Shown here: piece after piece, positions 1-40,719 of the stretch
Layout of the letters: the number at the start of each line of letters is the position of its first letter
Position numbering within the stretch: the first letter of the stretch is position 1
From: a virus
Lineage: Duplodnaviria; Heunggongvirae; Uroviricota; Caudoviricetes
Length of the DNA stretch: 40,719 nucleotides
Strand: one strand, 5' to 3'
IMG/VR virus record: IMGVR_UViG_2734482569_000014
Program-made: the position numbers and the translations under genes
Notes under the pieces: generated by a model
What the model was told of the DNA's origin: nothing
What the model saw: the letters and a program-made list of their open reading frames with translations, nothing else
Databases searched by the model: none

Positions 1-234
1 CGGCGGTGACTGCTCCTGCTCACCTGCCCGGAACACCACCGTGACGCCGGAGATGTTGGTATTCCCCTCACTGTCCAGCACCGGCGTACTGTTCAGCAGC
101 ACGCTTTTTAATCCATCCACCGGACCTTCAACCGGCCCTTCGCTGATGGCATCGATCACACTCAGCAGCTGCGTGGACTTCAGGTTGTCCTTCGCTTCGC
201 GCGGGGTATGCCCCTTACTGCTGCCTTTACCCAT
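1..234 (-). CDS. J: Tail tip / host-specificity protein J, N-terminal part only (gene continues beyond window start)
   Basis: Minus-strand translation from 234 reads MGKGSSKGHTPREAKDNLKSTQLLSVIDAISEGP, matching the lambda gpJ N-terminus as I recall it; GGA-rich SD just upstream; position after I in the K-I-J order. Confidence 0.8.
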   Translation of the reverse strand, partial: MGKGSSKGHTPREAKDNLKSTQLLSVIDAISEGPVEGPVDGLKSVLLNSTPVLDSEGNTNISGVTVVFRAGEQEQSPP

Positions 235-294
235 TCCTCACGCTCCATAAACGACAAAACCGCCCGCAGGCGGTTTCTCATAAAACATTTTGCA

Positions 295-942
295 TCAGCG
301 ACCAATCACCACAACCTGACCACCATCCCCTTCGTCTGCCGTGCTGATCTCCTGAGAAACCACACGTGACCCCACGCGCATTTCCCCGTACAGAACAGGC
401 AGAACATTACCCTGGGCAACCATGTTATCCAGTGACGAGAAATACGTGTTCTGTTTGCCGTTATCTGTACTGGCTGCCGTGGGCGTCCTGGCTTTCGGTG
501 CCAGCATCTGCGCCACACCACCCAGGATCATACTGGCCCCTGCTGCATACATACCCGATACAGCCGCGGCCCCCAGCCAGCCCACAGGGTTCCACCATGC
601 CACCGCAATCAGCGCCGCACCCAGCACCGCCTGAAACACACCGCCACTTTTGGCACCCGCCAGACGCGGAACGATGTGGATCACGGCACCATTTGCCAGC
701 GGTTCATTAAGACGGGCAGATAATTCATTTTCGCCTGCATCACGCCCGGCAATGCGCACCTGATACCAGCCGTCGCTCAGTTTCTGACGAAATGCCGGGA
801 GCTGTGTGGCCAGTGCCCGGATGGCTTCGGCCCCCGTTTTCACACGAAGGTCGATGCGGCGGCCAAATCGCTGCAAATCCCCGTAAAGGCAGATGCGTGC
901 CATGCCCGGTGACGCCAGAGGGAGTGTGTGCGTCGCTGCCAT
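295..942 (-). CDS. I: Tail assembly protein I
   Basis: ORF-track protein MAATHTLPLASPGMARICLYGDLQRFGRRIDLRV... closely resembles lambda gpI; synteny K-I-J. Confidence 0.85.
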   Translation of the reverse strand: MAATHTLPLASPGMARICLYGDLQRFGRRIDLRVKTGAEAIRALATQLPAFRQKLSDGWYQVRIAGRDAGENELSARLNEPLANGAVIHIVPRLAGAKSGGVFQAVLGAALIAVAWWNPVGWLGAAAVSGMYAAGASMILGGVAQMLAPKARTPTAASTDNGKQNTYFSSLDNMVAQGNVLPVLYGEMRVGSRVVSQEISTADEGDGGQVVVIGR

Positions 943-1502
943 TTGTCGGTATACCTCTCTCGTTTGCTCAGTTGTTCAGGAATATGGTGCAGCAGCTCGC
1001 CGTCACCACAGTAAATGGCGGCATGATTCGGCACCGATGAACCAAAACAGCACAGCAGCACATCGCCCGGCTGCGCCGTTGACAACGGCACCTGATACAG
1101 CCCTGTAGCCTCCAGATTATCCAGATAGAGATTCTGACCATTACGCCACCAGTCGTCCTCACGATGAAAATCTGGCATCTCAATTCCCGCCAGATGGTAA
1201 GCGTCCCGGAACAGCGTGTAACAGTCCGTCACCCCGTGCTCAAAGCGCCGCCCGGTGAGATGCGGCACACAGCGGAACTTGTGAATCGCCCCGCGGCAGA
1301 CCAGCCACCACGACAAATCACTCTGCACCTGCAGCCGCCGGTCGGCCTCACTCAGCCAGGGCAGACCACCGGGCGGCTCACCGGAAATATTCACGCAGGG
1401 AAAATATCTTTCCCCCTCCGGTGTTCTCACCACGAAGCCGCACGACTCCGCTGGCGCACATCGCCGGGCGTGCGCCAGAATCGCTGATTCTGTCTGTGTC
1501 AT
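840..1502 (-). CDS. K: Tail assembly protein K (JAMM/MPN plus NlpC/P60-like)
   Basis: ORF-track protein MTQTESAILAHARRCAPAESCGFVV... lambda gpK-like; overlaps I start as in the track. Confidence 0.8.
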   Translation of the reverse strand: MTQTESAILAHARRCAPAESCGFVVRTPEGERYFPCVNISGEPPGGLPWLSEADRRLQVQSDLSWWLVCRGAIHKFRCVPHLTGRRFEHGVTDCYTLFRDAYHLAGIEMPDFHREDDWWRNGQNLYLDNLEATGLYQVPLSTAQPGDVLLCCFGSSVPNHAAIYCGDGELLHHIPEQLSKRERYTDKWQRRTHSLWRHRAWHASAFTGICSDLAAASTFV

Positions 1503-1507
1503 GGGAT

Positions 1508-2206
1508 TTACTGCGAAAGTTTGTTAATGGAAAGGAAGCCGCCAAAGTTGCCGACGTTATTGCGGAACTTACAACCGCTCAGGCATTTGCTGCATTTATC
1601 CTTCGTGATATCGGACGTTGGCTGGTCATATTCATCCGCGACAGCCGGACCGTGATAACCGCACTCATCACCGCGATAGGTCCAGGTGCAGGTATTAGCA
1701 AGCATGATGCGCCCCGGAAAAACAGCGCCGTCCGTTTCCGTCGGCGTGGACAGTACAAAGGAGGCACTGACCGCGCTCAGTTCGCTGCACTGCTCAATAC
1801 GCCAGCGGCTGATCACCTCCTGCTCCGGATCGGCGTCACTGTTTCCGTTGACGAAGTTCACCGCATCCAGAAAACGGGCGTAAACCTTACGCCTGACCAC
1901 CGTTCCGCCGACCAGACTCTGCAGGTCTTCCGCCATCCCGGTGACCATGCCGTGCAGATTAGAGACTTTCAGCGTTGGCCTTGCACTGGCACCTTTGCCG
2001 TTCATCTCAAATCCACTCCCCTGAATGGGATAGGCCTGATACTGCCGACTCTGCCAGGTGACAGACTCTCCTTTCTCGTTCTGCTCATTGCAGAAAAAGT
2101 AGCGATCCCCGCCTACCTCGGTCAGGTCGATTTCCCAGAGCACCACGCTGGCCGACTGCTCCGCACGAATGCATTCATTCAGCGTTTCCTGTTGTATGTC
2201 CTGCAT
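1508..2206 (-). CDS. L: Minor tail protein L
   Basis: 232 aa, lambda gpL-like sequence with C-terminal Cys cluster; synteny. Confidence 0.85.
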   Translation of the reverse strand: MQDIQQETLNECIRAEQSASVVLWEIDLTEVGGDRYFFCNEQNEKGESVTWQSRQYQAYPIQGSGFEMNGKGASARPTLKVSNLHGMVTGMAEDLQSLVGGTVVRRKVYARFLDAVNFVNGNSDADPEQEVISRWRIEQCSELSAVSASFVLSTPTETDGAVFPGRIMLANTCTWTYRGDECGYHGPAVADEYDQPTSDITKDKCSKCLSGCKFRNNVGNFGGFLSINKLSQ

Positions 2207-2544
2207 CAGATCACCACTTCGTCAAACTGACACGAAAAATCGGTATAGGTGATATGTTCTGTCGCTGACCACGTTCGACACACCACTCTGATTTTTCTGT
2301 TAATACCCGGCGGGCGCCAAAAAAAAGATTTATAGCCTTCATGCCGGGCTAAAAATTTTTCAAATGAATCACGTTCATTCGCCTCAACTTTGAAATCACA
2401 GGTGAAAACGCGCAGAGAATGATTAAGTCCATTTGGACTTCGTTGCTCATAACCATCACCAAATCTTACAGTTTTTATCGATGGTTTATTTTCTGTTTTC
2501 ATTCCATCCTCTGGTAACCAGTGAAATTCTTCCGTATTAGCCAC
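2206..2544 (-). CDS. M: Minor tail protein M
   Basis: 112 aa, lambda gpM-like (VRFGDGY...FEVVI-type ending); synteny between H and L. Confidence 0.75.
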
Positions 2545-5500
2545 TTAACATTCCCCCATCACGTCGCATATTTAACAGATTGCCCTGCACCCGCTGATCA
2601 ACCATCCCCATAAGTGCTTTTATTGCCTGAGGGCCAATCTCTCCATTCTGGCCGTCATTTTGAATAGTGATTTGGTATACAGGGGCATAGGTAATATCTC
2701 CGCCTCCATTACCACTTTTACTATTAATAGCTCTGACACCAAGAGAACCATCGGAAGTTCGTGTTAATGGCATAATGGCTTCCGGTCCAGCCTCACCAAA
2801 AACACCAGCCCCTTTTGCAAAAGCAAAAAATTGCGGGGAATCATAAATACCGTTCGAATACGTGCTCAATGACGGAGACTCATAAACACCGCCCTTTGCA
2901 TTCGGAATAAATTTACTAATAGCACTCCCGATAGTTCCTAAAATCCCCCCAGAAGAACTGTTACTAATGCTGTCGAAAATCCCAGTAATTGAAGCCTTTA
3001 ATGCTATTCGACTAAGATCCGAAATCACGGAAGTAGCGAAAGAACGAAAATTTGCCTTGCCTGTCGTGACAAAATCACCCAGCGCATCGGTCATCCCATC
3101 AAACATCTGAGTCGTGGTTGATTTTATCTGCTCACTGATATCCTTAGTGTCATCCAGCCAGTTATTGAATCCCTGGGAGGCACCACTAACCCAGTCTCCT
3201 GCCTGAATATCGAGCTGCTCGTTTTTCTGTCTGACAATTTCTTTTTCCCGTTCCAGAGCATCATTCAGAGCCTGCATTTTCTCTTGAAAAACATGATCTG
3301 ACATTCCACGGGATTTATCTGCATAGTCACGTTCAAGTTGCAGACGCTGATTGTTATATCCATGTTCAATCCGCAGTAATTCCTGCTGGCGTTGCTGATT
3401 TTTATCGCCAACCCCATAACCAGCAATCTGAATATCATACCCCTGCTGACGATTATCAATCGAAGCCTGCAATGAATCACGCCATGCTGTTATTTCGGCG
3501 GATTCCTTGATTAGCCTGTTATTTTTTTCAATCGCAACATTTTTCTCCATCAACGTGGTTATTTCTTCCCGGTGTAAGAGAAGCGATTTCTGATCCTGGG
3601 TTAATTTCGATGATGGTCGTGACTCTAGGTCGGCAATCCGCTGACGCCACTTAACCAGTTCCTGTTCAGAGGAACTTAATTTAACGGTCAACTCAGCTTG
3701 TGAACTTAGTAACGCATTCTGTTGATTCAGATGATCAATCATTCGTTGGGCTGCATCATCAGAATAACCTTTCGCCTTTGGTTGCTTTGGATCTTTATAA
3801 CGCTCATTTATTTGAGCGATAAGATTATTATATTCTTCCTTTGAATACTGATTCTTTAGCTTTTCCAGTTTTGCAAGTTCACTAGCTCTCTGCTGCTCCC
3901 GGGTCTGATATTGTTTTGAAAAGGCATCTGCTCTCTGTCTGAGTTCAATTCCTTCCTGTTGTCGCTTGTTGTAATCGTTTATTGATGAATTTAGTACGTC
4001 CTGAGCAATTTTTTCTGCTTGAAGTACGCCCAATTGCTGCTTTAATCGTGCCAGCCTTTTATTTTGAGCTCCGCCATCTCCAATGCCACCTAACCCGAAA
4101 ACTCCGGGTCGGGTATTTTTTTCTATTTCATCAATTTGACGGAGAACATCTGAGATTTTTTGATCAAGGGAGGCCTCACGGCCAATATCCAGCATGGAAT
4201 CCCATGCCCATTTTGCGGAGTCTGCGACAGCTTTCCATGCAGTCTCAAGATAACCAAGATTTTCTTTAATCTGGTTGGTGCGCTGGATCATTGAGGATGA
4301 GTATTCTTCTGTCGCAATGCGGGCGGCCTCCTGCTGGTTCCCTTCATCCTGTAGCGCCTTAATCTGGTTATAAGTCGCAAGTGTCAGAAAATGGTACTGA
4401 TCATTAAGTTTTGATATGGCACTGACAGGATCCTTTGCAATTTCATTGAAGTCATTAACCAGTTGTTCGGTTGATATTCCTGTTACTTCGCTCGTTTTTA
4501 CTATCGCTGTCGTCACTTGCTCCAGCGAACTGCTCGCTACCTTTCCCGAACGCACAAGCTGATTTAATACTGCCGCCGCAGCACCAGTTGTCGAATCAGC
4601 CGCATTCCCGGCACGTTGAGCTATATCGCCCAATTGCCCGCTGGTTGTCCCCAACTGATTTCCGGTAAGAATAAGAGATTTATTAAATTCGTCCTGCTCC
4701 TGAGAGCCTTTATAGTAAGCCAGTCCTAAGACCCCAACGGCTGCTGCGGCCAGGGTAAAAGGATTAATTAATCCCAGCACATAAGAACCTACACCTTTGA
4801 TCGCCGGGCCAATCCCACCGAACATATCTTTTAGCTGGCCGCCCTGCTGCATTAACACCATAAATGGCGACTGACCAGTGGACAACCCAACAACAATATC
4901 CGTCATTTGTACAGGCAACATGCGCATAGCAAAAGCCGTTTGTTTTGCCGACATTCCGGTTTTGCTTAATTGTGATTGAGTAACCTCAAGCTCACTCCGC
5001 ATAGCACGAAGTTTTCCAGAAAGCTCCTCATACATTTCAGGAGAAAGCATCCCCTTAGCTTTTGCTTCATTGAGCTGTTTCTGTTGTTCTACCAGACGAT
5101 TAAAAGCAGTTCCGACAGGATCAAGTTGAGCAATCAGACGTTGCAAAGCAACAACCTGTTCATCATGCGCTTTTGCTGCTTCTCGCTCTGCCTGAGCCTC
5201 TCCGGTAAGCTCTCGCCGTGTTTCCTGTATTTTTCGGCTATAATTCTCAAACTGAGAACCATTTATTTTCCCGGATGCAAACGCAGCATTAAGTTCATCA
5301 TGCTGTTGTTCAAGATTTCTTAGCGCCGCAGCCAGAGGGTCGATCTTGTCCAGCATTCTTTGAAAGGCCTGAGCCTGCGCTTCCTGCTGGGCGGCAGCAA
5401 GTTTTCCGGCCTTCTCGGCTTCTCTCTGCGCTTGCGCAACCCCGCTCAATTCCTCTGTGGTTTCATTAAGTTTACGGACAAGAAATTCATATTCTTCTTT

Positions 5501-5770
5501 ATCAATAAGCCCTTTATCGAAAAATTTCTTTAATTCAGAATAGCGTCGACCGACAGTATCAATTGCGGCACCAACTGGATCAATAGCTGCTTTTAATTTT
5601 GCGAGCGCGTTCTTCTCATCTTCTGTTGCCTTAGTCACTTTCCCTGCGCTATTTGCAGCAGTTTCCCCAGCCTGCGTCATTTTGACTAATGAGGAGGTCA
5701 GATTGTCAGCATTATTTTTCGCTCCAGTGCTATCAATAATTATTGCGAGACGCGAGGTTTGCTCTGCCAT
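2537..5770 (-). CDS. H: Tail tape measure protein
   Basis: 1077 aa, long coiled-coil-rich protein with hydrophobic glycine-rich central segment; position between chaperone G/GT and M. Confidence 0.9.
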
Positions 5771-5935: not shown

Positions 5936-6256
5936 CTACACACACTGCTCCTGAAAATACTGGTCATCCAGTGCAAAGATCACTGCTTCAAATTCATCGC
6001 GCTCAATCAATACCGGATGAGTGGCTAAATATTCATTTATCTCTGTCAGAGATAAAGGCAAAGGCACCCCAGCCATTCCAGCATAACGTCGGGCACGGGA
6101 TATTACCGAATAGGCGTACAACAACTCCTTAAGCACCGGGTCTATTTCTGGTTCCGGTATCGGTGGCAACCTGAGTTTTTCTCGCTTCCATCTTGCCTTT
6201 TCCCCCCTTTCTCCCCCGAACTCCGATAACCACCGCTGGGCAGCTATGGCTTTTTT
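5936..6256 (-). CDS. T-frame extension of tail assembly chaperone (C-terminal part of the GT -1 frameshift fusion)
   Basis: ORF 5936..6169 is in the -1 frame relative to G; reading that frame from the slippery site gives an open frame KKAIAAQRWLSEFGGERGEKARWKREKLR that runs into MPPIPEPEID...; canonical G/GT arrangement upstream of the tape measure gene. Confidence 0.6.
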   Translation of the reverse strand, partial: KKAIAAQRWLSEFGGERGEKARWKREKLRLPPIPEPEIDPVLKELLYAYSVISRARRYAGMAGVPLPLSLTEINEYLATHPVLIERDEFEAVIFALDDQYFQEQCV

Positions 6257-6705
6257 ATCGTATCCTGCTTCTGCTGCTCTTTACCCTGGGCGATGCTGGC
6301 TGCTTCTGCAAGGATCTGCCAGTACAACTCTGGATTCTGCTTAAGCAGCGCGATCCCTCGTTCTGCCGTATATTCCAGTGCAACCTCAACACCATTAACC
6401 AGTTCACCAACCCCTTTCCAGTCTTTCAGCAGATAACGAGCGGCATTATCAATGAGTAAATCATCAACAGAATCCACCTCGGAAACCTTTGAAATATCAA
6501 ACTCCTTCGTTCCGACGTGCAAACTGGCATCCATTTTCTCAATGTGGCGACGGATTAATGCATTACGGGAGCGATACTGATCGTTATCGCTGCTTGCCAC
6601 CAACAGTTTTAACCCGTCTACAGGTTTTAAGTCCTTCATTGGCGTAAACCAGCGTTCTCCACCAATGATAATTTTCTGATTAAGAATAAACATCCATAAC
6701 CTCAT
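6244..6705 (-). CDS. G: Tail assembly chaperone G
   Basis: 153 aa acidic protein immediately upstream of the tape measure gene; ends ...QKQDTIKKP with the slippery heptamer two codons before the stop. Confidence 0.7.
   Translation of the reverse strand: MRLWMFILNQKIIIGGERWFTPMKDLKPVDGLKLLVASSDNDQYRSRNALIRRHIEKMDASLHVGTKEFDISKVSEVDSVDDLLIDNAARYLLKDWKGVGELVNGVEVALEYTAERGIALLKQNPELYWQILAEAASIAQGKEQQKQDTIKKP
6250..6256 (-). promoter_or_regulatory. Programmed -1 ribosomal frameshift slippery heptamer A_AAA_AAG (G to GT)
   Basis: Minus-strand mRNA ...GAU ACG AUA AAA AAG CCA UAG; heptamer identical to the dnaX-type slippery site; the -1 frame is open into the T ORF. Confidence 0.6.
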
Positions 6706-6753: not shown

Positions 6754-7716
6754 TCAACTAATCGCCTCAGCACTGGCTTTTGCGATCACGGCAGCCGGGG
6801 AATTTTTTTTTCTGGTTATCGTAGGTGCTTCATCTGCTGCGGTAATGCTCAATTGAACCTGGATAATGTCGCTATTACCCCCATCAGGCCATTCACCTGA
6901 CACCTGAACCTTCGGGAAACTGAAAGTGTATGCCCCCTCTCCATTCGAAAGCGTGAAGCTGAACGGAACTGTTTCTCCAGTCAGTGTTTTACTCCAGATT
7001 TCCCACGCGGCTTTAGACCATGAAAGCGTCACCGTACCGGACGGTGTAAAAGTAGTCGGAATATTTGCTCCTGCATAAGGCGAGCCAGTCCCGATACAAC
7101 GCTGTGTCTGGAGTTTGTTATCGAACTGAATATCAAAACTGTCGATACAAAAACCGTTACCTCCGGCAACACCATTCAGGCTTACTGCTGAAACCTCCTT
7201 AAACGAATAACGTAGCTTTCCTGCACTATCCACAGGTTCGCCTTTGATAAAATTCGTATCATCGGCCTTTGATTCCCAGTCCAGTCCGGCAAAGGTTACG
7301 GTCGCTGTAATATCGCCGTCGTTAGGGATCTGCATTTTCCATGAGCCAACCTGCGCTCCTCTGACGACAGAGGCAATTCCGACATCGGACGCATAGGTCG
7401 CCAGAGAAAATGTTATTCGCTCATTCCCCATTGTCAGAGAATCGCCTGACCATTCCGCGCCGAAACAGGATGCAAGAAAATCATCATGTTGACCCCAGCG
7501 AAATTTGGTACCAACATCACCGCCGACATCCACAGTGCCAGGCGTCGCCCCCTGAGCCATCCGGGAGCCACCAATCTCATTATTTTCGCCTTTATTCTGG
7601 GTGGGTTTTACTCCCCAGCTTGTGCGTTTTAATAAACTCCAGTCACCACTTGCTGGCGTAGTGCCTGCAACCGTCTCCCGGATAAATGCCGAGATAACCT
7701 TTGCACCTGAACTCAC
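6754..7716 (-). CDS. Major tail (tube) protein, probably with C-terminal Ig-like extension
   Basis: 320 aa, located directly upstream of the G/GT chaperone; Ser/Thr/Gly-rich beta-type sequence; assignment by synteny and composition. Confidence 0.7.
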   Translation of the reverse strand: MSSGAKVISAFIRETVAGTTPASGDWSLLKRTSWGVKPTQNKGENNEIGGSRMAQGATPGTVDVGGDVGTKFRWGQHDDFLASCFGAEWSGDSLTMGNERITFSLATYASDVGIASVVRGAQVGSWKMQIPNDGDITATVTFAGLDWESKADDTNFIKGEPVDSAGKLRYSFKEVSAVSLNGVAGGNGFCIDSFDIQFDNKLQTQRCIGTGSPYAGANIPTTFTPSGTVTLSWSKAAWEIWSKTLTGETVPFSFTLSNGEGAYTFSFPKVQVSGEWPDGGNSDIIQVQLSITAADEAPTITRKKNSPAAVIAKASAEAIS

Positions 7717-7742
7717 AGGAGCCTCCTATGTCATTAATTGCG

Positions 7743-8135
7743 CTAGAGCGCGCGATATGGAATTTGAAGATTAAGCTGGAACCAGCCATTCTTTTCGCCA
7801 ACGGCTATTGAGGAAACAGCCTGGTAACTGAGACGATCGTCATCCTGAAACTCAAACAGTTCCCGCAATTTATCGGCTGTCTCAGTAATGAGTTTTGAAC
7901 CAGAACCTGCGGGGACAAATAACTGAATAATGATTATCCCCGTGCGATAAACAACCGGCCCCGCGCCAATTTCATTAACTCCAGCCTGCCCGGGAATATT
8001 ACTTAACCGCGCCCAGATTAACTTTCCGGAAGGATCGAACGTTGGCCCGTTCGGATACAATACGTCTTTTCCATCAATAATCGTCTGTGCCGTCATTCTG
8101 GAAATAACCGTATTTCTGATTTCAGTAAACTTCAT
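7743..8135 (-). CDS. Tail terminator / tail completion protein (gpU-like position)
   Basis: 130 aa ORF immediately upstream of major tail gene; synteny only. Confidence 0.45.
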   Translation of the reverse strand: MKFTEIRNTVISRMTAQTIIDGKDVLYPNGPTFDPSGKLIWARLSNIPGQAGVNEIGAGPVVYRTGIIIIQLFVPAGSGSKLITETADKLRELFEFQDDDRLSYQAVSSIAVGEKNGWFQLNLQIPYRAL

Positions 8136-9291: not shown

Positions 9292-9294
9292 GTG

Positions 9295-30924: not shown

Positions 30925-30930
30925 GGTCAG

Positions 30931-31788: not shown

Positions 31789-31800
31789 GGAAACTTTTGC

Positions 31801-32474: not shown

Positions 32475-32481
32475 ATCACCC

Positions 32482-32533
32482 TCACAATGTGAACTTTGAG
32501 TACATGCTATAACAGAACTGACAGTACATTCAA
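32482..32533. promoter_or_regulatory. Immunity-region operators and divergent promoter region
   Basis: Palindrome TCACAATGTGA (32482..32492); AGTACAT copies at 32499..32505 and 32523..32529; minus-strand promoter -35 TTGAAT (32528..32533), -10 TATAGC (32506..32511). Confidence 0.35.
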
Positions 32534-32535
32534 GA

Positions 32536-33263: not shown

Positions 33264-33398
33264 ATGGTGCATTACGAAGTAGTTCAGTATTTGATGGATT
33301 GTTGCGGTATCACTTACAACCAGGCTGTGCAGGCTTTACGCAGCAACGACTGGGATCTCTGGCAGGCAGAAGTCGCTATACACAGCAACAAGATGTGA
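33264..33398 (+). CDS. ydaG: Small Rac protein YdaG-like (44 aa)
   Basis: MVHYEVVQYLMDCCGITYNQ... with AAGGGGAGAG SD; size matches Rac YdaG. Confidence 0.55.
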   Translation: MVHYEVVQYLMDCCGITYNQAVQALRSNDWDLWQAEVAIHSNKM

Positions 33399-33408
33399 GA
33401 TTCGCAAA

Positions 33409-33564
33409 ATGCAAAAAATCGACCTCGGCAACAACGAATCCCTGGTGTGCGGCGTGTTCCCCAACCAGGATGGAACGTTCACTGCCATGACGTATACCAA
33501 AAGCAAAACATTTAAAACCGAAACTGGTGCGCGCCGATGGTTGGAGAAGCACACAGTAAGCTAA
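33409..33564 (+). CDS. ydaF: Small Rac protein YdaF-like (51 aa)
   Basis: Hand translation MQKIDLGNNESLVCGVFPNQDGTFTAMTYTKSKTFKTETGARRWLEKHTVS; below track cutoff. Confidence 0.55.
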   Translation: MQKIDLGNNESLVCGVFPNQDGTFTAMTYTKSKTFKTETGARRWLEKHTVS

Positions 33565-34049
33565 CGATTAAAACGTCTACTCCTGCTGTTCCAGAATAAC
33601 TTCATAAAATGGGAGTATTTTTCGGTGACGAGATAATAAGAACAGTTTGCGCTATCACTCTGATGTTGAATGATGCCCTTCCGTTCTAATTTTTTCATAA
33701 CCGGGTTACGGCAAGGAGAAGTGATAATAAGATTTCCTGTTTTAAGGAAATCTTTAAATACAGCGATTTCTTTCTCAGATAAACGAAGCAATACTCGTTG
33801 CTCTGGTAGTAATGAATAATGCTTTTGAATATGTGCTCGCAATCTTGAGAAGGAAATGGCGACCACGAAAGAAAAGGCAAAAACGATAATCTGAAAGAGC
33901 CAAGGTATTTCAGTATAAGCATTGAATGCGACAGTAAACTCTTTCGGTATCAGCCAGAGAGTGAGACCAAAAATGATAATCGTATACATAAGTATTTCGA
34001 GTGGCTCGTTAGCAAAAAGTTTCAACAATGGAGTAAATACATCCAACAT
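33561..34049 (-). CDS. sieB: Superinfection exclusion protein B
   Basis: Likely start MLDVFTPLLKLFANEPLEILMYTIIIFGL giving 162 aa with N-terminal TM segments, as for Rac SieB. Confidence 0.75.
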   Translation of the reverse strand: MLDVFTPLLKLFANEPLEILMYTIIIFGLTLWLIPKEFTVAFNAYTEIPWLFQIIVFAFSFVVAISFSRLRAHIQKHYSLLPEQRVLLRLSEKEIAVFKDFLKTGNLIITSPCRNPVMKKLERKGIIQHQSDSANCSYYLVTEKYSHFMKLFWNSRSRRFNR

Positions 34050-34490
34050 ATCAATAACTCTCAACTGTAAGGGTATTGAAATGTTAACACAAGCTCTCGC
34101 TGTAGGGGTATAGCCGAGACCACCGAAGCCCGGAGGTGGTGAAATAAAACCGGGCACAACACGAAGGCGCATTTCCGATATCCATAAAGAGTCGGTCTTG
34201 TCTGTTAAATTTAAATGGTGGGAGTGCGCCTCCGGTTGTAAATAACGACATTGCTGTGTGTAGTCCTGGCGGCATCAGTTTTTTTCTTGAAGTTCGGCTG
34301 ATGTCCGCCCTTTTTAAAGTGAATTTTGTGATGCGGTGAATGCGGCTAAGCGCACGTGGCACAGTTAAAAGTCATGTTAGTCCTTATTGGTTTGGGTGGG
34401 AAAGCCGACTGTAATTGTTAACTGGTTGCAGTCACCTGGAGGCACCAGGCACCGCATCAACAAAGTTCATTTGTAAAAATGGAGATAATT

Positions 34491-34712
34491 ATGATTGCAC
34501 ATCACTTCGGAACTGATGAAATACCACGTCAGTGTGTGACTCCTGGCGATTATGTTCTTCATGAAGGCCGGACATATATTGCCTCGGCAAACAATATTAA
34601 AAAGCGAAAACTATATATTCGTAACCTGACCACAAAAACATGCATTACTGACCGCATGATTAAAGTCTTCCTCGGTCGTGATGGTTTACCTGTAAAGGCG
34701 GAGTCATGGTGA
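34491..34712 (+). CDS. kilR: FtsZ inhibitor KilR
   Basis: [35 protein letters not shown]..., 73 aa, matches Rac KilR as recalled. Confidence 0.75.
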
Positions 34713-34882
34713 TGACTAAGAAAATAAAATGTGCTTACCACCTTTGCAAAAAAGACGTTGAAGAAAGCAAAGCTATTGAAAGAATGCTTCACTTCATGCA
34801 CGGGATTTTATCAAAAGACGAACCGAGAAAATATTGCAGTGAAGCTTGTGCCGAAAAAGACCAGATGGCACATGAACTTTAA
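34712..34882 (+). CDS. ydaE: YdaE-like zinc-binding small protein (56 aa)
   Basis: Hand translation [56 protein letters not shown]; start overlaps kilR stop (TGATG). Confidence 0.55.
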   Translation: MTKKIKCAYHLCKKDVEESKAIERMLHFMHGILSKDEPRKYCSEACAEKDQMAHEL

Positions 34883-34956
34883 TTAATTGACTATTCGAAA
34901 CTGAATTTATGCCAGAAATGGCAGGTATTCGCTCAACCTTAATTAAGGAGAAAAAC

Positions 34957-35232
34957 ATGATTACCAATTATGAAGCCACTGTTGTAACTACCGATGACAT
35001 TGTTCACGAGGTGAATCTGGAAGGAAAGCGCATTGGCTACGTAATTAAAACAGAAAATAAAGAAACCCCATTCACTGTGGTTGATATCGATGGTCCATCA
35101 GGCAACGTAAAAACACTTGATGAAGGTGTCAAAAAAATGTGCCTGGTGCATATCGGAAAGAATCTGCCCGCAGAAAAAAAAGCCGAATTTCTGGCAACTC
35201 TAATTGCAATGAAATTAAAAGGTGAAATCTGA
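34957..35232 (+). CDS. racC: RacC
   Basis: MITNYEATVVTTDDIVHEV..., 91 aa; immediately upstream of recE. Confidence 0.7.
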   Translation: MITNYEATVVTTDDIVHEVNLEGKRIGYVIKTENKETPFTVVDIDGPSGNVKTLDEGVKKMCLVHIGKNLPAEKKAEFLATLIAMKLKGEI

Positions 35233-35333: not shown

Positions 35334-37934
35334 ATGAGCACAAAACCACTCTTCCTGTTACGGAAAGCGAAAAAATCATCCGGTGAACCTGACGTCGTCC
35401 TGTGGGCAAGCAACGATTTTGAATCGACCTGTGCCACTCTGGACTACCTGATCGTTAAGTCAGGTAAAAAACTGAGCAGCTATTTTAAAGCTGTTGCCAC
35501 GAATTTTCCTGTCGTTAATGACCTGCCCGCTGAAGGTGAGATCGATTTTACCTGGAGTGAACGCTATCAACTCAGCAAAGACTCCATGACATGGGAACTA
35601 AAACCGGGAGCAGCACCAGACAACGCTCACTATCAAGGCAATACCAACGTCAACGGCGAAGACATGACTGAGATTGAGGAGAATATGCTACTCCCAATTT
35701 CTGGCCAGGAACTGCCCATTCGTTGGCTTGCTCAACACGGCAGCGAAAAACCGGTAACGCACGTTTCACGCGACGGACTCCAGGCATTACACATTGCTCG
35801 GGCTGAAGAACTACCGGCTGTTACTGCCCTGGCTGTTTCCCACAAAACCAGCCTGCTCGACCCGCTGGAAATTCGCGAACTCCACAAACTGGTTCGTGAC
35901 ACTGACAAAGTTTTCCCTAATCCTGGTAATTCAAACCTGGGACTGATAACTGCTTTTTTCGAAGCATACCTGAACGCTGACTACACCGATCGAGGACTGC
36001 TGACAAAAGAGTGGATGAAGGGTAATCGTGTTTCACACATCACTCGCACGGCTTCCGGTGCTAATGCTGGCGGCGGAAACCTCACCGATCGCGGCGAAGG
36101 TTTCGTACACGATCTGACGTCACTGGCGCGGGACGTAGCCACTGGCGTACTGGCCCGTTCAATGGATCTGGACATCTATAACCTTCATCCGGCACACGCT
36201 AAACGCATTGAGGAAATTATCGCTGAAAATAAACCGCCCTTTTCTGTTTTCCGCGACAAATTCATCACCATGCCTGGCGGGCTGGATTATTCCCGCGCCA
36301 TCGTGGTTGCGTCCGTAAAAGAAGCACCAATTGGGATCGAGGTCATCCCCGCGCACGTCACTGAATATCTGAACAAAGTACTGACTGAAACCGATCATGC
36401 CAACCCTGATCCGGAAATCGTGGATATTGCCTGCGGTCGCTCCTCTGCCCCGATGCCGCAGCGAGTAACAGAAGAAGGAAAACAGGATGATGAAGAAAAA
36501 CCGCAACCATCTGGAACAACGGCAGTTGAACAGGGAGAGGCTGAAACAATGGAACCGGACGCAACTGAACATCATCAGGACACGCAGCCGCTGGATGCTC
36601 AGTCACAGGTAAATTCTGTTGATGCGAAATATCAGGAACTGCGGGCAGAACTCCATGAAGCCCGGAAAAACATTCCATCAAAAAATCCTGTCGATGCCGA
36701 TAAATTGCTTGCTGCATCACGTGGTGAATTTGTTGACGGAATTAGCGACCCGAACGATCCGAAATGGGTAAAGGGGATCCAGACTCGCGATTGTGTGTAC
36801 CAGAACCAGCCAGAAACGGAAAAAACCAGCCCGGATATGAATCAACCTGAGCCAGTAGTGCAACAGGAACCGGAAATAGCCTGCAATGCCTGCGGCCAGA
36901 CTGGCGGGGATAACTGCCCTGACTGTGGTGCGGTGATGGGCGACGCAACATACCAGGAAACATTCGATGAAGAGAGTCAGGTTGAAGCTAAGGAAAATGA
37001 TCCGGAGGAAATGGAAGGCGCTGAACATCCGCACAATGAGAATGCTGGCAGCGATCCGCATCGCGATTGCAGTGATGAAACTGGCGAAGTCGCAGATCCC
37101 GTAATCGTAGAAGACATAGAGCCAGGTATTTATTACGGAATTTCGAATGAGAATTACCACGCGGGTCCCGGTGTCAGTAAGTCTCAGCTCGATGACATTG
37201 CTGATACTCCGGCACTGTATTTGTGGCGTAAAAATGCCCCCGTGGACACCACAAAGACAAAAACGCTCGATTTAGGAACCGCTTTCCACTGCCGGGTACT
37301 TGAGCCGGAAGAATTCAGTAACCGCTTTATCGTAGCACCTGAATTTAACCGCCGGACAAACTCCGGAAAAGAAGAAGAGAAAGCGTTTCTGAGGGAATGC
37401 GCAAGCACAGGAAAAACGGTTATCACTGCCGAAGAAGGCCGGAAAATTGAACTCATGTATCAGAGCGTTATGGCTTTGCCGCTGGGGCAATGGCTTGTTG
37501 AAAGCGCCGGACACGCTGAATCATCAATTTACTGGGAAGATCCTGAAACAGCAATTTTGTGTCGGTGCCGTCCGGACAAAATTATCCCTGAATTTCACTG
37601 GATCATGGACGTGAAAACTACGGCGGATATTCAACGATTCAAAACCGCTTATTACGACTACCGCTATCACGTTCAGGATGCATTCTACAGTGACGGTTAT
37701 GAAGCACAGTTTGGAGTGCAGCCAACTTTCGTTTTTCTGGTTGCCAGCACAACTATTGAATGCGGACGTTATCCGGTTGAAATTTTCATGATGGGCGAAG
37801 AAGCAAAACTGGCAGGTCAGCTGGAATATCACCGCAATCTGCGAACCCTGGCTGACTGCCTCAATACCGATGAATGGCCAGCTATTAAGACGTTATCACT
37901 GCCCCGCTGGGCTAAGGAATATGCAAATGACTAA
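35334..37934 (+). CDS. recE: Exodeoxyribonuclease VIII (RecE)
   Basis: 866 aa, same length as K-12 RecE; followed by overlapping recT. Confidence 0.9.
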
Positions 37935-38736
37935 GCAACCACCAATCGCAAAAGCCGATCTGCAAAAAACTCAGGGAAACCGTGCACCAGCAGCAATTAA
38001 AAATAACGACGTGATTAGTTTTATTAACCAGCCATCAATGAAAGAGCAACTGGCAGCAGCTCTTCCACGCCATATGACGGCTGAACGTATGATCCGTATC
38101 GCCACCACAGAAATTCGTAAAGTTCCGGCGTTAGGAAACTGTGACACTATGAGTTTTGTCAGTGCAATCGTACAGTGTTCACAGCTCGGACTTGAGCCCG
38201 GTAGCGCCCTCGGTCATGCATATTTACTGCCTTTTGGTAATAAAAACGAAAAGAGCGGTAAAAAAAACGTTCAGCTAATCATTGGCTATCGCGGCATGAT
38301 TGATCTGGCTCGCCGTTCAGGTCAAATCGCCAGCCTGTCAGCCCGTGTTGTCCGTGAAGGTGACGAGTTTAATTTCGAATTTGGCCTTGATGAAAAGTTA
38401 ATACACCGCCCAGGAGAAAACGAAGATGCCCCTGTTACCCACGTCTATGCTGTCGCAAGACTGAAAGACGGAGGTACTCAGTTTGAAGTTATGACGCGCA
38501 AACAGATTGAGCTGGTGCGCAGCCAGAGTAAAGCTGGTAATAACGGGCCGTGGGTAACTCACTGGGAAGAAATGGCAAAGAAAACGGCTATTCGTCGCCT
38601 GTTCAAATATCTGCCCGTATCAATTGAGATCCAGCGTGCAGTATCAATGGATGAAAAGGAACCACTGACAATCGATCCTGCAGATTCCTCTGTATTAACC
38701 GGGGAATACAGTGTAATCGATAATTCAGAGGAATAA
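37927..38736 (+). CDS. recT: Single-strand annealing protein RecT
   Basis: Start [12 protein letters not shown] overlapping recE stop; 269 aa. Confidence 0.9.
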
Positions 38737-38791: not shown

Positions 38792-38941
38792 ATGAGATAT
38801 GACAATGTTAAACCATGTCCATTTTGTGGTTGTCCATCAGTAACGGTGAAAGCCATTTCAGGATATTACCGAGCGAAGTGTAACGGATGCGAATCCCGAA
38901 CCGGTTATGGTGGAAGTGAAAAAGAAGCACTCGAACGATGA
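38792..38941 (+). pseudogene. ralR: ralR (restriction alleviation / type I toxin) with apparent premature TGA at codon 50
   Basis: Reads MRYDNVKPCPFCGCPSVTVKAISGYYRAKCNGCESRTGYGGSEKEALER then TGA, after which NKRTTGNNNGGVHV continues in frame; a 64-aa ORF is absent from the track. Confidence 0.5.
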
Positions 38942-38966
38942 AATAAACGAACCACTGGAAATAATA

Positions 38967-39167
38967 ATGGAGGTGTTCATGTATAAAATTACCGCCACTA
39001 TTGAAAAGGAAGGTGGCACTCCTACTAACTGGACAAGATATTCAAAATCTAAACTAACGAAATCAGAATGCGAAAAAATGCTCTCAGGTAAAAAAGAAGC
39101 AGGCGTTTCCAGAGAGCAGAAAGTAAAACTGATAAATTTTAATTGCGAGAAACTTCAGTCCTCGTGA
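38967..39167 (+). CDS. ydaC: YdaC-like small protein
   Basis: MEVFMYKITATIEKEGGTPTNW...; track ORF extends upstream to 38907 inside ralR in another frame. Confidence 0.5.
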   Translation: MEVFMYKITATIEKEGGTPTNWTRYSKSKLTKSECEKMLSGKKEAGVSREQKVKLINFNCEKLQSS

Positions 39168-39266
39168 ATTGCATTGTATTCAAATTAAAACTTCATAGCT
39201 GATTATTAATAATCAACATCGGGCGTCAATTTAAGTCTAACATTGGCGCCTGCCAGAGGTGATGCG

Positions 39267-39482
39267 ATGGCACAAGTAATCTTTAATGAAGAGTGGATGG
39301 TTGAATACGGCCTGATGCTTCGCACTGGTCTGGGGGCCAGACAAATTGAAGCATACCGCCAGAACTGTTGGGTGGAAGGCTTCCACTTCAAACGAGTATC
39401 TCCTTTAGGGAAGCCAGACAGTAAGCGAGGGATTATCTGGTATAACTATCCAAAGATAAATCAGTTTATCAAAGACTCATGA
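39267..39482 (+). CDS. xis: Excisionase (YdaQ/Xis-like)
   Basis: [28 protein letters not shown]..., 71 aa, immediately upstream of integrase. Confidence 0.7.
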
Positions 39483-39483
39483 T

Positions 39484-40719
39484 ATGTCTAAATTACCAAC
39501 AGGTGTCGAGATTCGAGGTAAATACATTCGCATCTGGTTCATGTTTCGAGGAAAACGATGTCGGGAAACATTGAAAGGCTGGGAGGTTACTAACAGTAAC
39601 ATTAAAAAAGCCGGGAATTTAAGAGCGTTGATAGTTCATGAAATCAATTCCGGTGAGTTTGAGTATTTAAGACGTTTTCCCCAGTCCAGCACTGGGGCAA
39701 AAATGGTGACAACGAGGGTCATAAAAACGTTCGGGGAGCTTTGTGATATCTGGACAAAAATTAAAGAAACAGAGTTAACAACAAACACAATGAAGAAAAC
39801 GAAATCACAATTAAAAACACTCAGGATAATAATTTGTGAGAGTACTCCGATATCGCATATTCGTTATAGCGATATCTTAAACTACCGGAATGAACTGCTG
39901 CATGGAGAAACGCTTTACCTGGATAATCCAAGATCCAACAAAAAAGGAAGAACCGTGCGCACAGTTGATAACTATATCGCCCTGCTCTGTTCGTTGTTAC
40001 GTTTTGCGTATCAGTCGGGATTTATATCAACCAAACCATTTGAAGGAGTAAAGAAATTACAGAGAAACAGAATAAAGCCTGACCCGTTATCTAAAACAGA
40101 ATTCAATGCATTAATGGAAAGTGAAAAAGGACAGAGCCAGAACTTGTGGAAATTTGCCGTATACTCCGGGCTTCGTCACGGGGAACTGGCTGCTCTGGCG
40201 TGGGAGGATGTGGATTTCGAGAAGGGAGTTGTGAATGTCAGAAGAAACCTGACGATACTGGATATGTTCGGTCCCCCAAAAACAAATGCGGGGATCCGGA
40301 CGGTAACACTACTGCAGCCTGCTCTTGAAGCACTGAAGGAGCAATACAAACTGACCGGGCATCATCGCAAAAGCGAAATCACTTTTTATCATCGGGAGTA
40401 CGGCAGAACCGAAAAGCAAAAACTGCATTTTGTTTTCATGCCCAGAGTGTGTAACGGAAAACAGAAACCTTATTACTCGGTAAGCAGTTTGGGTGCGAGA
40501 TGGAATGCAGCAGTAAAACGTGCTGGTATTCGCCGCCGTAATCCGTACCATACGCGGCATACTTTTGCCTGCTGGCTGTTGACGGCAGGAGCGAACCCGG
40601 CGTTTATAGCCAGCCAGATGGGGCATGAAACTGCGCAGATGGTGTATGAAATTTACGGTATGTGGATTGATGACATGAACGACGAACAGGTAGCCATGTT
40701 GAATGCGCGGTTATCGTAG
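39484..40719 (+). CDS. intR: Tyrosine recombinase / prophage integrase
   Basis: 411 aa; C-terminal catalytic region with HTRHTFACWLL...Y motif; stop codon is the last three bases of the window. Confidence 0.9.
   Translation: MSKLPTGVEIRGKYIRIWFMFRGKRCRETLKGWEVTNSNIKKAGNLRALIVHEINSGEFEYLRRFPQSSTGAKMVTTRVIKTFGELCDIWTKIKETELTTNTMKKTKSQLKTLRIIICESTPISHIRYSDILNYRNELLHGETLYLDNPRSNKKGRTVRTVDNYIALLCSLLRFAYQSGFISTKPFEGVKKLQRNRIKPDPLSKTEFNALMESEKGQSQNLWKFAVYSGLRHGELAALAWEDVDFEKGVVNVRRNLTILDMFGPPKTNAGIRTVTLLQPALEALKEQYKLTGHHRKSEITFYHREYGRTEKQKLHFVFMPRVCNGKQKPYYSVSSLGARWNAAVKRAGIRRRNPYHTRHTFACWLLTAGANPAFIASQMGHETAQMVYEIYGMWIDDMNDEQVAMLNARLS

What the first reader, a model, noticed from the sequence alone, without database searches (positions are those of the whole stretch)
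1..40719. Window looks like an intact Rac-type prophage with its complete morphogenesis module
Gene content and order (int, xis, ydaC, ralR, recT, recE, racC, ydaE, kilR, sieB, ydaF/G, racR, ydaS/T/U/V/W, Rz/Rz1, trkG, ParB-like) match what I recall of the defective K-12 Rac prophage. Here a full head and tail gene set and a phage-21-type lysis cassette are also present, plus accessory cassettes absent from K-12 Rac. The attachment sites lie outside the window.
Basis: partly seen in the sequence, partly recalled or inferred. Interest (0 to 1): 0.4.

Follow-up and report, generated by a model that had tools for sequence, protein, structure and literature searches.

The report
Near-complete Rac-type prophage, one tail-gene lesion
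The window is about four-fifths of a full-size relative of the defective K-12 Rac prophage, a kind of phage already described as active in other strains; its genes are intact except for an in-frame deletion in the tail-assembly gene K, and its tail-tip and fibre genes lie outside the window.

Summary
The window is a Rac-type lambdoid prophage: 98.3-99.9% DNA identity to K-12 Rac in four collinear blocks, and 99.9% to a ~52.5-kb prophage at ttcA in E. coli NCTC10444. K-12 Rac looks like this phage after three deletions (9.1, 11.6 and 8.4 kb).

Four points need correcting:
- The racR-ydaS immunity module is not present. A non-homologous DicA-like repressor and cro-like pair takes its place.
- The morphogenesis module is not complete in the window. 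J is cut at codon 78, and lom, stf and tfa lie outside.
- The gpK homologue carries an 81-bp in-frame deletion that removes the His-x-His of its JAB/MPN domain. This rare natural allele was seen only in Shigella sonnei assemblies. All 49 other mapped CDS are full length.
- Full-size, particle-forming Rac-like phages are already published (KingRac, Rac-SA53, Sp10/CP-933R).

The phage-21-type lysis cassette, trkG, the ParB-like gene and the accessory cassettes are confirmed, and both att sites lie outside the window.

Verdict: ordinary and already known. "Intact" is only partly supported.

Side leads: a conserved ParB-TAGT glycosyltransferase pair ahead of the terminase genes, and a HEPN-like two-gene cassette shared with Aeromonas defence islands.

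The parts
1..234 (-). First 78 codons of the central tail fibre gene J, cut by the window edge
   Evidence: Maps to gpJ of NCTC10444. The translation starts MGKGSSKGHTPREAKDNLKSTQ.
295..843 (-). gpI-like tail assembly protein (182 aa)
   Evidence: phrog_32 tail assembly protein, 7.5e-84. Identical to the NCTC10444 protein.
840..1502 (-). gpK homologue (JAB/MPN + NlpC/P60), 220 aa, with a 27-residue in-frame deletion
   Evidence: NLPC_P60 is intact; Prok-JAB is matched only over profile positions 3-40. The exact protein is WP_072112000.1 of Shigella sonnei.
1373..1374 (.). Junction of the 81-bp deletion (removes EEYFRMAPEDWLQAEMQGEIVALVHSH)
   Evidence: Alignment to NCTC10444. The 60-nt junction has no match in 5,426 complete E. 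coli genomes. A 27-nt junction pattern has no exact match in the genome or metagenome collections.
1508..2544 (-). gpL (1508-2206) and gpM (2206-2544) tail tip proteins
   Evidence: phrog_18 and phrog_14. Identical to NCTC10444.
2537..5770 (-). Tape measure protein, 1077 aa. K-12 ynaA is its N-terminal remnant (window 4836-5770).
   Evidence: phrog_24. K-12 alignment block window 4836-6595.
5936..6705 (-). Tail assembly chaperones G (6244-6705) and G-T, with slippery A_AAA_AAG at 6250-6256. K-12 ydaY is the C-terminal part of G.
   Evidence: phrog_313. The sequence was read directly, and the -1 frame is open into 5936-6169. K-12 block.
6754..9471 (-). Tail tube (6754-7716), tail terminator (7743-8135), Neck1/tail completion (8132-8512), head closure Hc1 (8513-8896), adaptor Ad1 (8896-9291), 58-aa protein (9295-9471)
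   Evidence: PHROG and Pfam matches. All full length.
9514..16502 (-). Head and packaging genes: P22-coat-like major capsid protein (9514-10653), scaffold DUF6651 (10752-11516), Mu F-like minor head protein (11621-12733), portal (12717-14123), TerL (14126-15427), TerS (15408-16502)
16506..16715 (-). Conserved 69-aa protein between the TAGT gene and TerS
   Evidence: Kept in this position in 74 of the 80 IMG/VR loci (the other six are cut short or are the most distant one), down to 57% identity. No Pfam match.
16693..17643 (-). TAGT-family (PF20691) GT-A glycosyltransferase; function here unknown
   Evidence: Pfam 4.1e-34 and phrog_842 8e-104. Invariant DDD at residues 108-110. Weak GT-A fold matches.
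17618..18406 (-). Full-length ParB_N-domain protein, 262 aa. K-12 ynaK is its first ~85 codons.
   Evidence: Pfam ParB_N and phrog_620. The K-12 block ends at window 18153.
18544..20001 (-). trkG potassium transporter, an accessory gene in a low-GC stretch
   Evidence: PGAP name. GC 0.39-0.43. 99.3% identical to K-12.
20139..21312 (-). Lysis cassette: Rz (20139-20603) with embedded Rz1 lipoprotein (20198-20383), SAR endolysin (20600-21097), S21-type holin with dual start (21097-21312)
   Evidence: Pfam Phage_lysis, Phage_lysozyme and Phage_holin_2_1 'P21 holin S' 2.1e-35. Translations.
21564..22538 (-). Two TolA C-terminal-domain proteins (21564-21938 and 22110-22538)
   Evidence: Pfam TolA, 1.3e-14 and 2.4e-23.
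22649..22835 (-). STnc100 sRNA family match in the 1-kb non-coding gap downstream of the Q-like gene
   Evidence: Rfam, 86.6 bits against a gathering score of 47.
23583..25011 (-). Late-regulation block: Q-like DUF1133 (23583-24125), YbcO (24122-24412), DUF1367 (24412-25011)
   Evidence: Pfam. DUF1133 also matches Phage_antitermQ at 8.6e-06.
25825..26163 (+). DUF1971 / TehB-N-like accessory gene on the opposite strand, in an AT-rich stretch
   Evidence: Pfam 2.6e-26. NCBIfam TehB, partial match.
26784..28763 (-). Two-gene accessory cassette: p320 (27801-28763, HEPN-like) and p333 (26784-27785, GNAT-like C-terminus)
   Evidence: 86% nt identity to Aeromonas islands next to Thoeris genes. No PADLOC match.
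28962..32223 (-). Replication and early-right genes: DUF977 (28962-29378), full-length ydaW/DUF1627 (29394-30155), ydaV DnaC-like (30178-30924), ydaU (30931-31788), ydaT cII-position protein (31801-32223)
   Evidence: K-12 block window 29706-32229 at 98.3%.
32220..32973 (.). Immunity region, not homologous to racR-ydaS: cro-like HTH (32220-32474, minus strand) and DicA-like repressor with no peptidase domain (32554-32973, plus strand)
   Evidence: No DNA match to K-12. BLASTP. NCBIfam DicA subfamily 2e-15, below the cut-off. Pfam HTH_3 only.
33264..35232 (.). ydaG, ydaF, sieB (minus strand), kilR, ydaE, racC
   Evidence: 98.7% block with K-12. PGAP names. SieB Pfam match.
35334..38736 (+). recE (866 aa) and recT (269 aa)
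38792..39167 (.). ralR (49 aa, W50stop relative to K-12), RalA sRNA (38985-39163, minus strand), rcbA/ydaC DUF1187 (38979-39167)
39267..40719 (+). xisR (39267-39482) and intR (39484-40719). The window ends on the intR stop codon.

Best explanation
The window is about 78% (40.7 of ~52.5 kb) of a full-size Rac-type lambdoid prophage integrated in ttcA. It most likely comes from Shigella sonnei or a very close E. coli relative.

The element has the K-12 Rac early-left operon (int/xis, ralR/RalA, recET, kilR, sieB). It has a different, DicA-like immunity pair. It then carries the Rac replication genes (ydaT-U-V-W), a Q-like late regulator, a phage-21-type lysis cassette, trkG, a ParB-TAGT pair, and a head and tail module. 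That module combines a P22-coat-like head with a lambda-like tail (G/G-T, H, M, L, K, I, J).

K-12 Rac is what remains of such a phage after three deletions, an IS5 insertion and an immunity swap.

Within the window every gene is full length except the gpK homologue. That gene has lost 27 residues, including the zinc-binding His-x-His of its JAB/MPN domain.

Shown: identity, synteny, gene integrity and the lesion. Inferred: the element can still excise, replicate, lyse the cell and build heads. Tail-tip assembly is probably impaired, which I put at about 55%, so I would not call it intact.
For: Four collinear blocks match K-12 Rac at 98.3-99.9%, with K-12 lacking window 20584-29705, 6596-18152 and everything below 4836.

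Identity to the NCTC10444 prophage between uspF/sitABCD and ttcA is 99.9%. There the imperfect ttcA 5' duplicates flank the element, about 52.5 kb apart.

Of the 50 mapped CDS, 49 are full length without internal stops. The G/G-T slippery site is intact. Structural gene assignments come, and the lysis cassette.

The gpK deletion is documented. The exact allele is on record only for Shigella sonnei, on 3 contigs, against at least 1,000 contigs for the full-length allele. Those contigs match the window at 99.97%.

gpK is required for lambda tail assembly (PMC12617516). Full-size Rac-like phages are known to make particles (KingRac, PMC6731689).
Against: The consequence of the gpK deletion is untested. 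The role of the JAB motif in gpK is a prediction (PMC1779556), and that paper notes prophage K versions with only the NlpC/P60 domain. The deletion is in frame and the NlpC/P60 domain is untouched.

J, lom, stf, tfa and both att sites cannot be assessed from the window. In the Shigella sonnei draft contigs J is interrupted by runs of N, which are scaffold gaps.

Those assemblies are short-read drafts, so an assembly error in a multi-copy tail gene is not fully excluded.
Confidence: 0.85

Rival explanations
1. The prophage is fully functional: it is inducible and produces infectious particles, and the gpK deletion is tolerated.
For: 49 of 50 CDS are intact, and the deletion is in frame with NlpC/P60 preserved. 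K versions without a JAB domain exist in prophages (PMC1779556). The allele is seen in several Shigella sonnei assemblies. Close relatives such as KingRac form particles.
Against: The deletion removes the core of the JAB fold and both zinc-binding histidines, and the Pfam score falls below the cut-off. The 60-nt junction is absent from 5,426 complete E. coli genomes, 4,363 of which carry a match to this K region; the twelve best all keep the 81 bp. Persistence in a lysogen needs no functional tail. J and the fibre genes are not in the window.
Confidence: 0.35
2. The 81-bp gpK deletion is an assembly artefact of short-read drafts, caused by several near-identical K genes in co-resident lambdoid prophages. 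The real prophage would then have a normal K.
For: The contigs carrying the allele are draft scaffolds with N gaps in the neighbouring J gene. K-like sequences occur at a median of 3 places per genome.
Against: The same junction appears in at least 3 independent assemblies and in the window. It lies more than 1.2 kb from the N gaps. Collapse of repeats does not normally produce a clean internal 81-bp deletion with no repeat at the junction.
Confidence: 0.1
3. The early region belongs to a different prophage family, and the resemblance to Rac is superficial.
For: The immunity pair is not racR/ydaS.
Against: 7.6 kb (int to ydaG) at 98.7% and 2.5 kb (ydaT to ydaW) at 98.3% identity to K-12 Rac, collinear, and next to ttcA in the nearest complete genome.
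Confidence: 0.01

Closest known systems
Cryptic prophage Rac of E. coli K-12 (NC_000913.3 1411899-1434958)
   Same: Same integrase, excisionase and integration site. Same early-left operon, ydaT-U-V-W, Rz/Rz1, trkG and the start of the ParB-like gene, at 98.3-99.9% identity and collinear.
   Different: K-12 lacks 9.1 kb (rest of ydaW, accessory genes, Q-like block, holin, endolysin, start of Rz). It lacks 11.6 kb (rest of ParB, TAGT, terminase to tail tube, start of G) and 8.4 kb (rest of the tape measure to lom). K-12 carries racR-ydaS where the window has a DicA-like/cro-like pair. K-12 RalR is 64 aa against 49 aa here.
Rac-type prophage of E. coli NCTC10444 (NZ_LR134092.1, about 2711392-2763901)
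   Same: 99.9% identical over the whole window, with the same gene set including the rare p320/p333 cassette.
   Different: 32 substitutions, a 1-nt intergenic indel at 25808, and a full-length 247-aa K.
KingRac (Frazao et al. 2019, PMC6731689), Rac-SA53 (KU052037; Jobling 2016, cited in PMC5917428), Sp10/CP-933R (PMC4632033)
   Same: Full-size Rac-like prophages, described at ttcA for KingRac and for Sp10/CP-933R. KingRac forms tailed particles and lysogenises K-12 in the mouse gut. Rac-SA53 shares 41% of window 20400-40719 at 92% identity.
   Different: They are mosaics with different cargo (LT-II toxin genes in Rac-SA53) and partly different late and structural modules. KingRac was not available for alignment.
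Phage 21 lysis cassette (S21 pinholin, R21 SAR endolysin, Rz/Rz1)
   Same: Holin matches Pfam 'Bacteriophage P21 holin S' and has the MKSM dual start. The endolysin has a Gly/Ala-rich N-terminal SAR segment. Rz1 is embedded in Rz.
   Different: It was not aligned to phage 21 itself, so family-level membership only.
Lambda tail genes G/G-T, H, M, L, K, I, J
   Same: Same order, programmed -1 frameshift, and domain content.
   Different: K lacks 27 residues of its JAB domain. The head genes are P22-coat/Mu F-like rather than lambda-like.

Membership tests
Rac-type prophage | IntR/XisR integration module next to ttcA | tested here: met
   intR and xisR lie in the 98.7% block with K-12. In the 99.9%-identical NCTC10444 copy, ttcA follows intR by 52 nt. 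ttcA itself is outside the window.
Rac-type prophage | Early-left operon ralR/RalA-recT-recE-racC-ydaE-kilR with sieB, ydaF and ydaG | tested here: met
   Collinear at 98.7%. RalA by Rfam at 225 bits.
Rac-type prophage | racR-ydaS immunity module | tested here: not met
   No DNA homology. Only a 33-residue HTH match to RacR and none to YdaS. The repressor is DicA-like. Immunity swaps are normal among lambdoid mosaics, so this lowers 'same immunity type', not 'Rac-type'.
Rac-type prophage | ydaT-ydaU-ydaV-ydaW replication block, then Rz/Rz1-trkG-ynaK | tested here: met
   Blocks at 98.3% and 99.3%.
Rac-type prophage | Flanking att duplicates of the ttcA 5' end | not testable with these tools
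   Both lie outside the window. They are present in NCTC10444.
Intact (inducible, particle-forming) prophage | All essential head, tail and lysis genes are undisrupted | tested here: not met
   49 of 50 CDS are intact, but gpK has a 27-residue deletion through its JAB motif. J is cut at codon 78 by the window edge.
Intact (inducible, particle-forming) prophage | Excision, induction and plaque or particle production | not testable with these tools
   This needs experiments. The repressor has no S24 peptidase domain, and KingRac was only weakly induced by mitomycin C.
Phage-21-type lysis cassette | S21-family holin with dual start | tested here: met
   PF04971, 2.1e-35; the N-terminus reads MKSMDK.
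Phage-21-type lysis cassette | SAR endolysin, and Rz with embedded Rz1 lipoprotein | tested here: met
   The endolysin N-terminus [20 protein letters not shown] precedes the lysozyme domain. Rz1 has the lipobox VVGC.
TAGT (TET-associated glycosyltransferase) DNA hypermodification system | TAGT-family GT-A enzyme with a DxD motif | tested here: met
   PF20691, 4.1e-34; invariant DDD; weak GT-A fold matches.
TAGT (TET-associated glycosyltransferase) DNA hypermodification system | A partner that creates the hydroxylated base (TET/JBP-type dioxygenase, or hmC/hmU synthesis, or an alpha/beta-GT) | tested here: not met
   None of the window's CDS carries such a domain or annotation. None is present in the distant locus L084 either. 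It should therefore not be filed as a known hmC/hmU glycosylation pathway.

The most novel reading that the evidence does not exclude
The ParB_N protein (17618-18406) and the solitary TAGT glycosyltransferase (16693-17643) form a two-gene module. It sits immediately upstream of the terminase genes in all 80 related viral loci examined (in 74 of them with the 69-aa protein; six are cut short or too distant), down to 53-61% identity, and also in an unrelated phage backbone.

The proposal is a packaging-linked glycosylation system that works without any TET/JBP dioxygenase or hydroxymethyl-pyrimidine pathway. By analogy with the ParB-dependent thymidine dioxygenases reported in 2026, the ParB-fold protein would load on phage DNA and recruit or activate the glycosyltransferase. 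The acceptor would be either a so far unknown DNA target or a packaging or virion protein. K-12 ynaK would be the stump of this system.
Probability: 0.25. Interest if true: 0.6.

Novelty: already known. Interest (0 to 1): 0.15.

Why it matters
It matters little for the main finding. Full-size Rac-like prophages, their site in ttcA and their ability to form particles are published. Near-identical copies of the structural half occur in 690 of 5,426 complete E. coli genomes.

Three things are useful:
- A clean map of how K-12 Rac derives from such a phage. On this map ydaY is the C-terminal part of tail chaperone G, ynaA the N-terminal part of the tape measure, ynaK the first ~85 codons of a ParB-fold protein, and rzpR is Rz minus its first 20 nt.
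- A caution that this copy carries a lesion in gpK and has a different immunity type from K-12 Rac.
- Two side leads (ParB-TAGT, and the HEPN-like/GNAT-like cassette) that touch open questions about solitary phage glycosyltransferases and prophage-borne defence genes.

Tried and rejected
- The deletion junction has no match in complete E. coli genomes (60-nt query). A 27-nt junction pattern has none in one-per-species genome representatives or metagenome contigs. This first suggested a private or artificial change. The exact-protein look-up then found the allele in Shigella sonnei assemblies, so I dropped the idea of an artificial edit.
- I tried to judge J from the Shigella sonnei contigs. 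The apparent split of J is caused by runs of N, so nothing can be concluded.
- PADLOC scans of ten accessory and unknown proteins gave no defence-system match, apart from the ParB N-domain hitting a ParB-methyltransferase model.
- PDB sequence searches for TAGT, p320 and p333 gave nothing usable.
- The TAGT model is only moderately confident (pLDDT 68). Its PDB fold matches are generic GT-A enzymes with low TM-scores, so no acceptor could be inferred.
- No tRNA genes were found. No further Rfam families were found in the non-coding gaps, and no hok/sok-like element in the AT-rich 25012-25824 stretch.
- The Jobling 2016 paper on Rac-SA53 is not held in the library, so it is cited only through PMC5917428.
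- The ON470xxx 'phage' records come from a survey of phages located in clinical isolate genomes (title only). I did not treat them as evidence of viable virions.

Full report
**What the window is.** All 40,719 bases match a prophage of E. coli NCTC10444 (NZ_LR134092.1 2723009-2763809) at 99.9% identity. The differences are 32 substitutions, a 1-nt intergenic indel at window 25808 and one 81-bp gap. In that genome the element lies between uspF/sitABCD and ttcA. It is flanked by imperfect ~50-nt duplicates of the ttcA 5' end about 52.5 kb apart. The window begins 234 nt inside gene J and ends exactly on the intR stop codon. It therefore holds about 78% of the element. Most of J, plus lom, the side tail fibre gene, tfaR, the sitABCD cargo and both att sites, lie outside it.

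K-12 Rac (NC_000913.3) aligns to the window in four collinear blocks:
- intR to ydaG: window 33098-40719, 98.7%.
- ydaT to the first part of ydaW: window 29706-32229, 98.3%.
- Rz remnant, trkG and ynaK: window 18153-20583, 99.3%.
- ydaY and ynaA: window 4836-6595, 99.9%.

K-12 therefore lacks three segments. The first is window 20584-29705 (9.1 kb: rest of ydaW, DUF977, accessory genes, the Q-like block, TolA-like genes, holin, endolysin and the first 20 nt of Rz). The second is window 6596-18152 (11.6 kb: rest of the ParB-like gene, the glycosyltransferase, terminase, portal, head, connector and tube genes, and the start of tail chaperone G). The third is 8.4 kb, running from inside the tape measure gene to lom.

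This explains several K-12 orphan genes. ydaY is the C-terminal part of chaperone G. ynaA is the N-terminal ~311 residues of the tape measure protein. ynaK is the first ~85 codons of a 262-aa ParB-fold protein. rzpR is Rz without its start.

**One module is not Rac.** K-12 positions covering racR and ydaS have no DNA counterpart in the window. The 139-aa repressor-position protein (32554-32973) shares only a 33-residue helix-turn-helix stretch with RacR, at 36% identity. The 84-aa cro-position protein has no significant match to YdaS. The repressor resembles the DicA subfamily, scoring below the curated cut-off, and has only an HTH domain with no peptidase domain. These are positional analogues, so the element has a different immunity type from K-12 Rac.

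**Gene integrity.** I mapped the 50 CDS annotated in the NCTC10444 copy onto the window. Forty-nine are full length without internal stops, and 44 of them are identical in protein sequence.

The structural set is coherent. In order it runs:
- TerS, TerL, portal and a Mu F-like minor head protein.
- Scaffold, a P22-coat-like capsid protein and a 58-aa protein.
- Adaptor, head closure, tail completion, tail terminator and tail tube.
- Chaperones G/G-T, tape measure, M, L, K, I and the start of J.

The G/G-T programmed frameshift is intact. The slippery heptamer A_AAA_AAG lies at 6250-6256 on the minus strand, two codons before the G stop, and the -1 frame is open through to 5936.

The lysis cassette is of the phage 21 type. 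The holin matches Pfam 'Bacteriophage P21 holin S' (2.1e-35) and has an MKSM dual start. The endolysin has a Gly/Ala-rich SAR N-terminus. Rz carries an embedded Rz1 lipoprotein with a VVGC lipobox.

PGAP's two 'pseudogenes' in NCTC10444 (ynaK and tolA) are artefacts of comparison with a truncated or a much longer reference. The window has clean ORFs of 262 and 142 aa there.

**The exception is gene K.** Relative to NCTC10444 and the best-matching complete E. coli genomes, the window lacks 81 bp between positions 1373 and 1374. The deletion is in frame, removes whole codons and has no repeat at the junction. It deletes EEYFRMAPEDWLQAEMQGEIVALVHSH. That segment is the core of the JAB/MPN domain and includes the His-x-His of the HSHPGG...S..D zinc site. 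The Prok-JAB Pfam match shrinks from profile positions 3-103 (53.8 bits) to 3-40 (20.9 bits, below the 25-bit cut-off), while NlpC/P60 is unaffected.

The 60-nt junction is absent from 5,426 complete E. coli genomes, and a 27-nt junction pattern from the genome and metagenome collections. The exact 220-aa protein is nevertheless on record as WP_072112000.1 of Shigella sonnei. It is on 3 contigs, against at least 1,000 contigs for the 247-aa form. Those contigs match the window at 99.97%. The allele is therefore natural and rare, and it points to Shigella sonnei or a close relative as the source.

gpK is required for lambda tail assembly but has not been found in the virion (PMC12617516 and PMC10721106). 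Its JAB and NlpC/P60 domains were predicted to process the ubiquitin-like gpI. The same paper notes that prophages sometimes carry K versions without JAB, possibly degenerate ones (PMC1779556).

I infer that tail-tip assembly is more likely impaired than not, at about 55%. This is an inference, not a result. In the Shigella sonnei draft contigs J is interrupted only by scaffold gaps, so J cannot be judged.

**What is already known.** Full-sized Rac-like prophages are in the literature:
- Jobling's LT-II-encoding Rac-SA53 (cited in PMC5917428; GenBank KU052037).
- Sp10 and CP-933R in O157:H7 (PMC4632033).
- KingRac, a 46.8-kb Rac-like prophage. It replaced K-12 Rac at ttcA in the mouse gut, is weakly induced by mitomycin C and yields tailed particles (PMC6731689).

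The structural half of the window (at least 80% coverage in one place) occurs in 690 of 5,426 complete E. coli genomes, and the early/late half in 60. The finding is a correct identification of a known kind of element.

**Accessory content.** They are:
- Two TolA C-terminal-domain proteins.
- An STnc100-family sRNA in the 1-kb gap downstream of the Q-like gene.
- A DUF1971/TehB-N-like gene on the opposite strand in AT-rich DNA.
- A two-gene cassette at 26784-28763.
- The ParB-TAGT pair.

**Side lead 1: the two-gene cassette.** p320 belongs to a family whose members carry the Pfam domains PF18870 (HEPN/RES N-terminal domain 1) and PF18735. R258 and H263, spaced as in the HEPN Rx4H motif, are invariant in 25 homologues down to 31% identity. 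p333 has a weak GNAT match with an RRRG motif. The 2.08-kb unit is 86% identical in DNA to Aeromonas loci, where it sits next to Thoeris-type genes (SIR2/STALD and ThsB-TIR) and, in one locus, an AbiEi gene. Only 13 of 5,426 E. coli genomes carry at least 80% of window 25012-28961. No PADLOC model matches it.

**Side lead 2: ParB-TAGT.** Directly upstream of TerS lie a 262-aa ParB_N protein, a 316-aa TAGT-family glycosyltransferase and a conserved 69-aa protein. The glycosyltransferase matches PF20691 at 4.1e-34 and phrog_842 at 8e-104, has an invariant DDD motif, and models as a GT-A-like fold. ParB directly precedes the glycosyltransferase in all 80 IMG/VR loci recovered, down to 53-61% identity, even where TerL and portal are unrelated. 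The 69-aa protein and TerS follow in most of them. In a distant backbone with a different terminase family and a P22-type portal, the ParB-TAGT pair again directly precedes the packaging genes.

No dioxygenase, cytosine methyltransferase or hydroxymethylase appears among the window's domain matches or annotations. Recent papers show that ParB-fold proteins activate phage thymidine dioxygenases (PMC13229309). They also note that 288 of 753 GT-encoding phage genomes have solitary TAGT homologues of unknown role (PMC13216743). The acceptor here is unknown. I record this as the most novel reading that the evidence leaves open.

**Verdict.** The element is an already known kind: a full-size Rac-type prophage. 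Within the window it is complete except for the truncated J. It has a different immunity type from K-12 Rac and a probably damaging in-frame deletion in tail gene K. Interest is low for the main finding.

Noticed in passing
window 16506-18406 (minus strand): The ParB_N protein and TAGT glycosyltransferase sit immediately upstream of the packaging genes in all 80 IMG/VR loci, and with the 69-aa protein and TerS in most, down to 53-61% identity. The pair also precedes the terminase in an unrelated backbone (L084). No dioxygenase or hydroxymethyl-base pathway accompanies it, so the acceptor is unknown.
   Followed up: partly
window 26742-28822 (minus strand); loci L085-L089: A two-gene cassette: p320 is HEPN-like with R258 and H263 invariant (Rx4H spacing), and p333 has a GNAT-like C-terminus. 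It is 86% nt-identical to Aeromonas islands next to Thoeris genes. At least 80% of window 25012-28961, the stretch that holds it, is present in only 13 of 5,426 E. coli genomes, and there is no PADLOC match. It is a candidate anti-phage or abortive-infection module.
   Followed up: partly
window 4836-6595, 18153-18406 and 20139-20583, against K-12 L002: Several K-12 orphan genes are deletion stumps. ydaY is the C-terminal part of tail chaperone G, ynaA the N-terminal part of the tape measure, ynaK the first ~85 codons of the ParB-fold gene, and rzpR is Rz lacking its first 20 nt. PGAP flags the full-length ParB gene as a pseudogene in NCTC10444 because the K-12 stub is the reference.
   Followed up: yes
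window 38939-38941: ralR carries a stop at codon 50 (49 aa against 64 aa in K-12), while the RalA antitoxin sRNA is intact. NCTC10444 has the same allele.
   Followed up: partly
window 22649-22835 (minus strand): An STnc100 sRNA family match (86.6 bits) lies in a 1-kb non-coding gap downstream of the Q-like gene. It may be part of the late-promoter leader.
   Followed up: no
window 32554-32973: The repressor is DicA-like and has no S24 peptidase domain. Induction is therefore unlikely to work by RecA-stimulated self-cleavage, which fits the weak mitomycin C induction reported for KingRac.
   Followed up: no
window 1-292: 11 of the 32 substitutions against NCTC10444 cluster in the first 292 nt (the 5' end of J and the J-I spacer). 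Another 7 cluster at 20592-20654 (the Rz/endolysin junction). This suggests recombination patches exchanged with other lambdoid prophages.
   Followed up: no
L003 2778-6227 (NCTC10444, outside the window): In the closest complete genome the prophage carries sitABCD iron/manganese transporter genes as cargo, between tfaR and the att site. K-12 has pinR and ynaE in that position.
   Followed up: no
L090 12925-13174; L091 11554-11847: The Shigella sonnei draft contigs that share the K allele have N-filled scaffold gaps inside J. Gene callers therefore report a falsely split J.
   Followed up: yes
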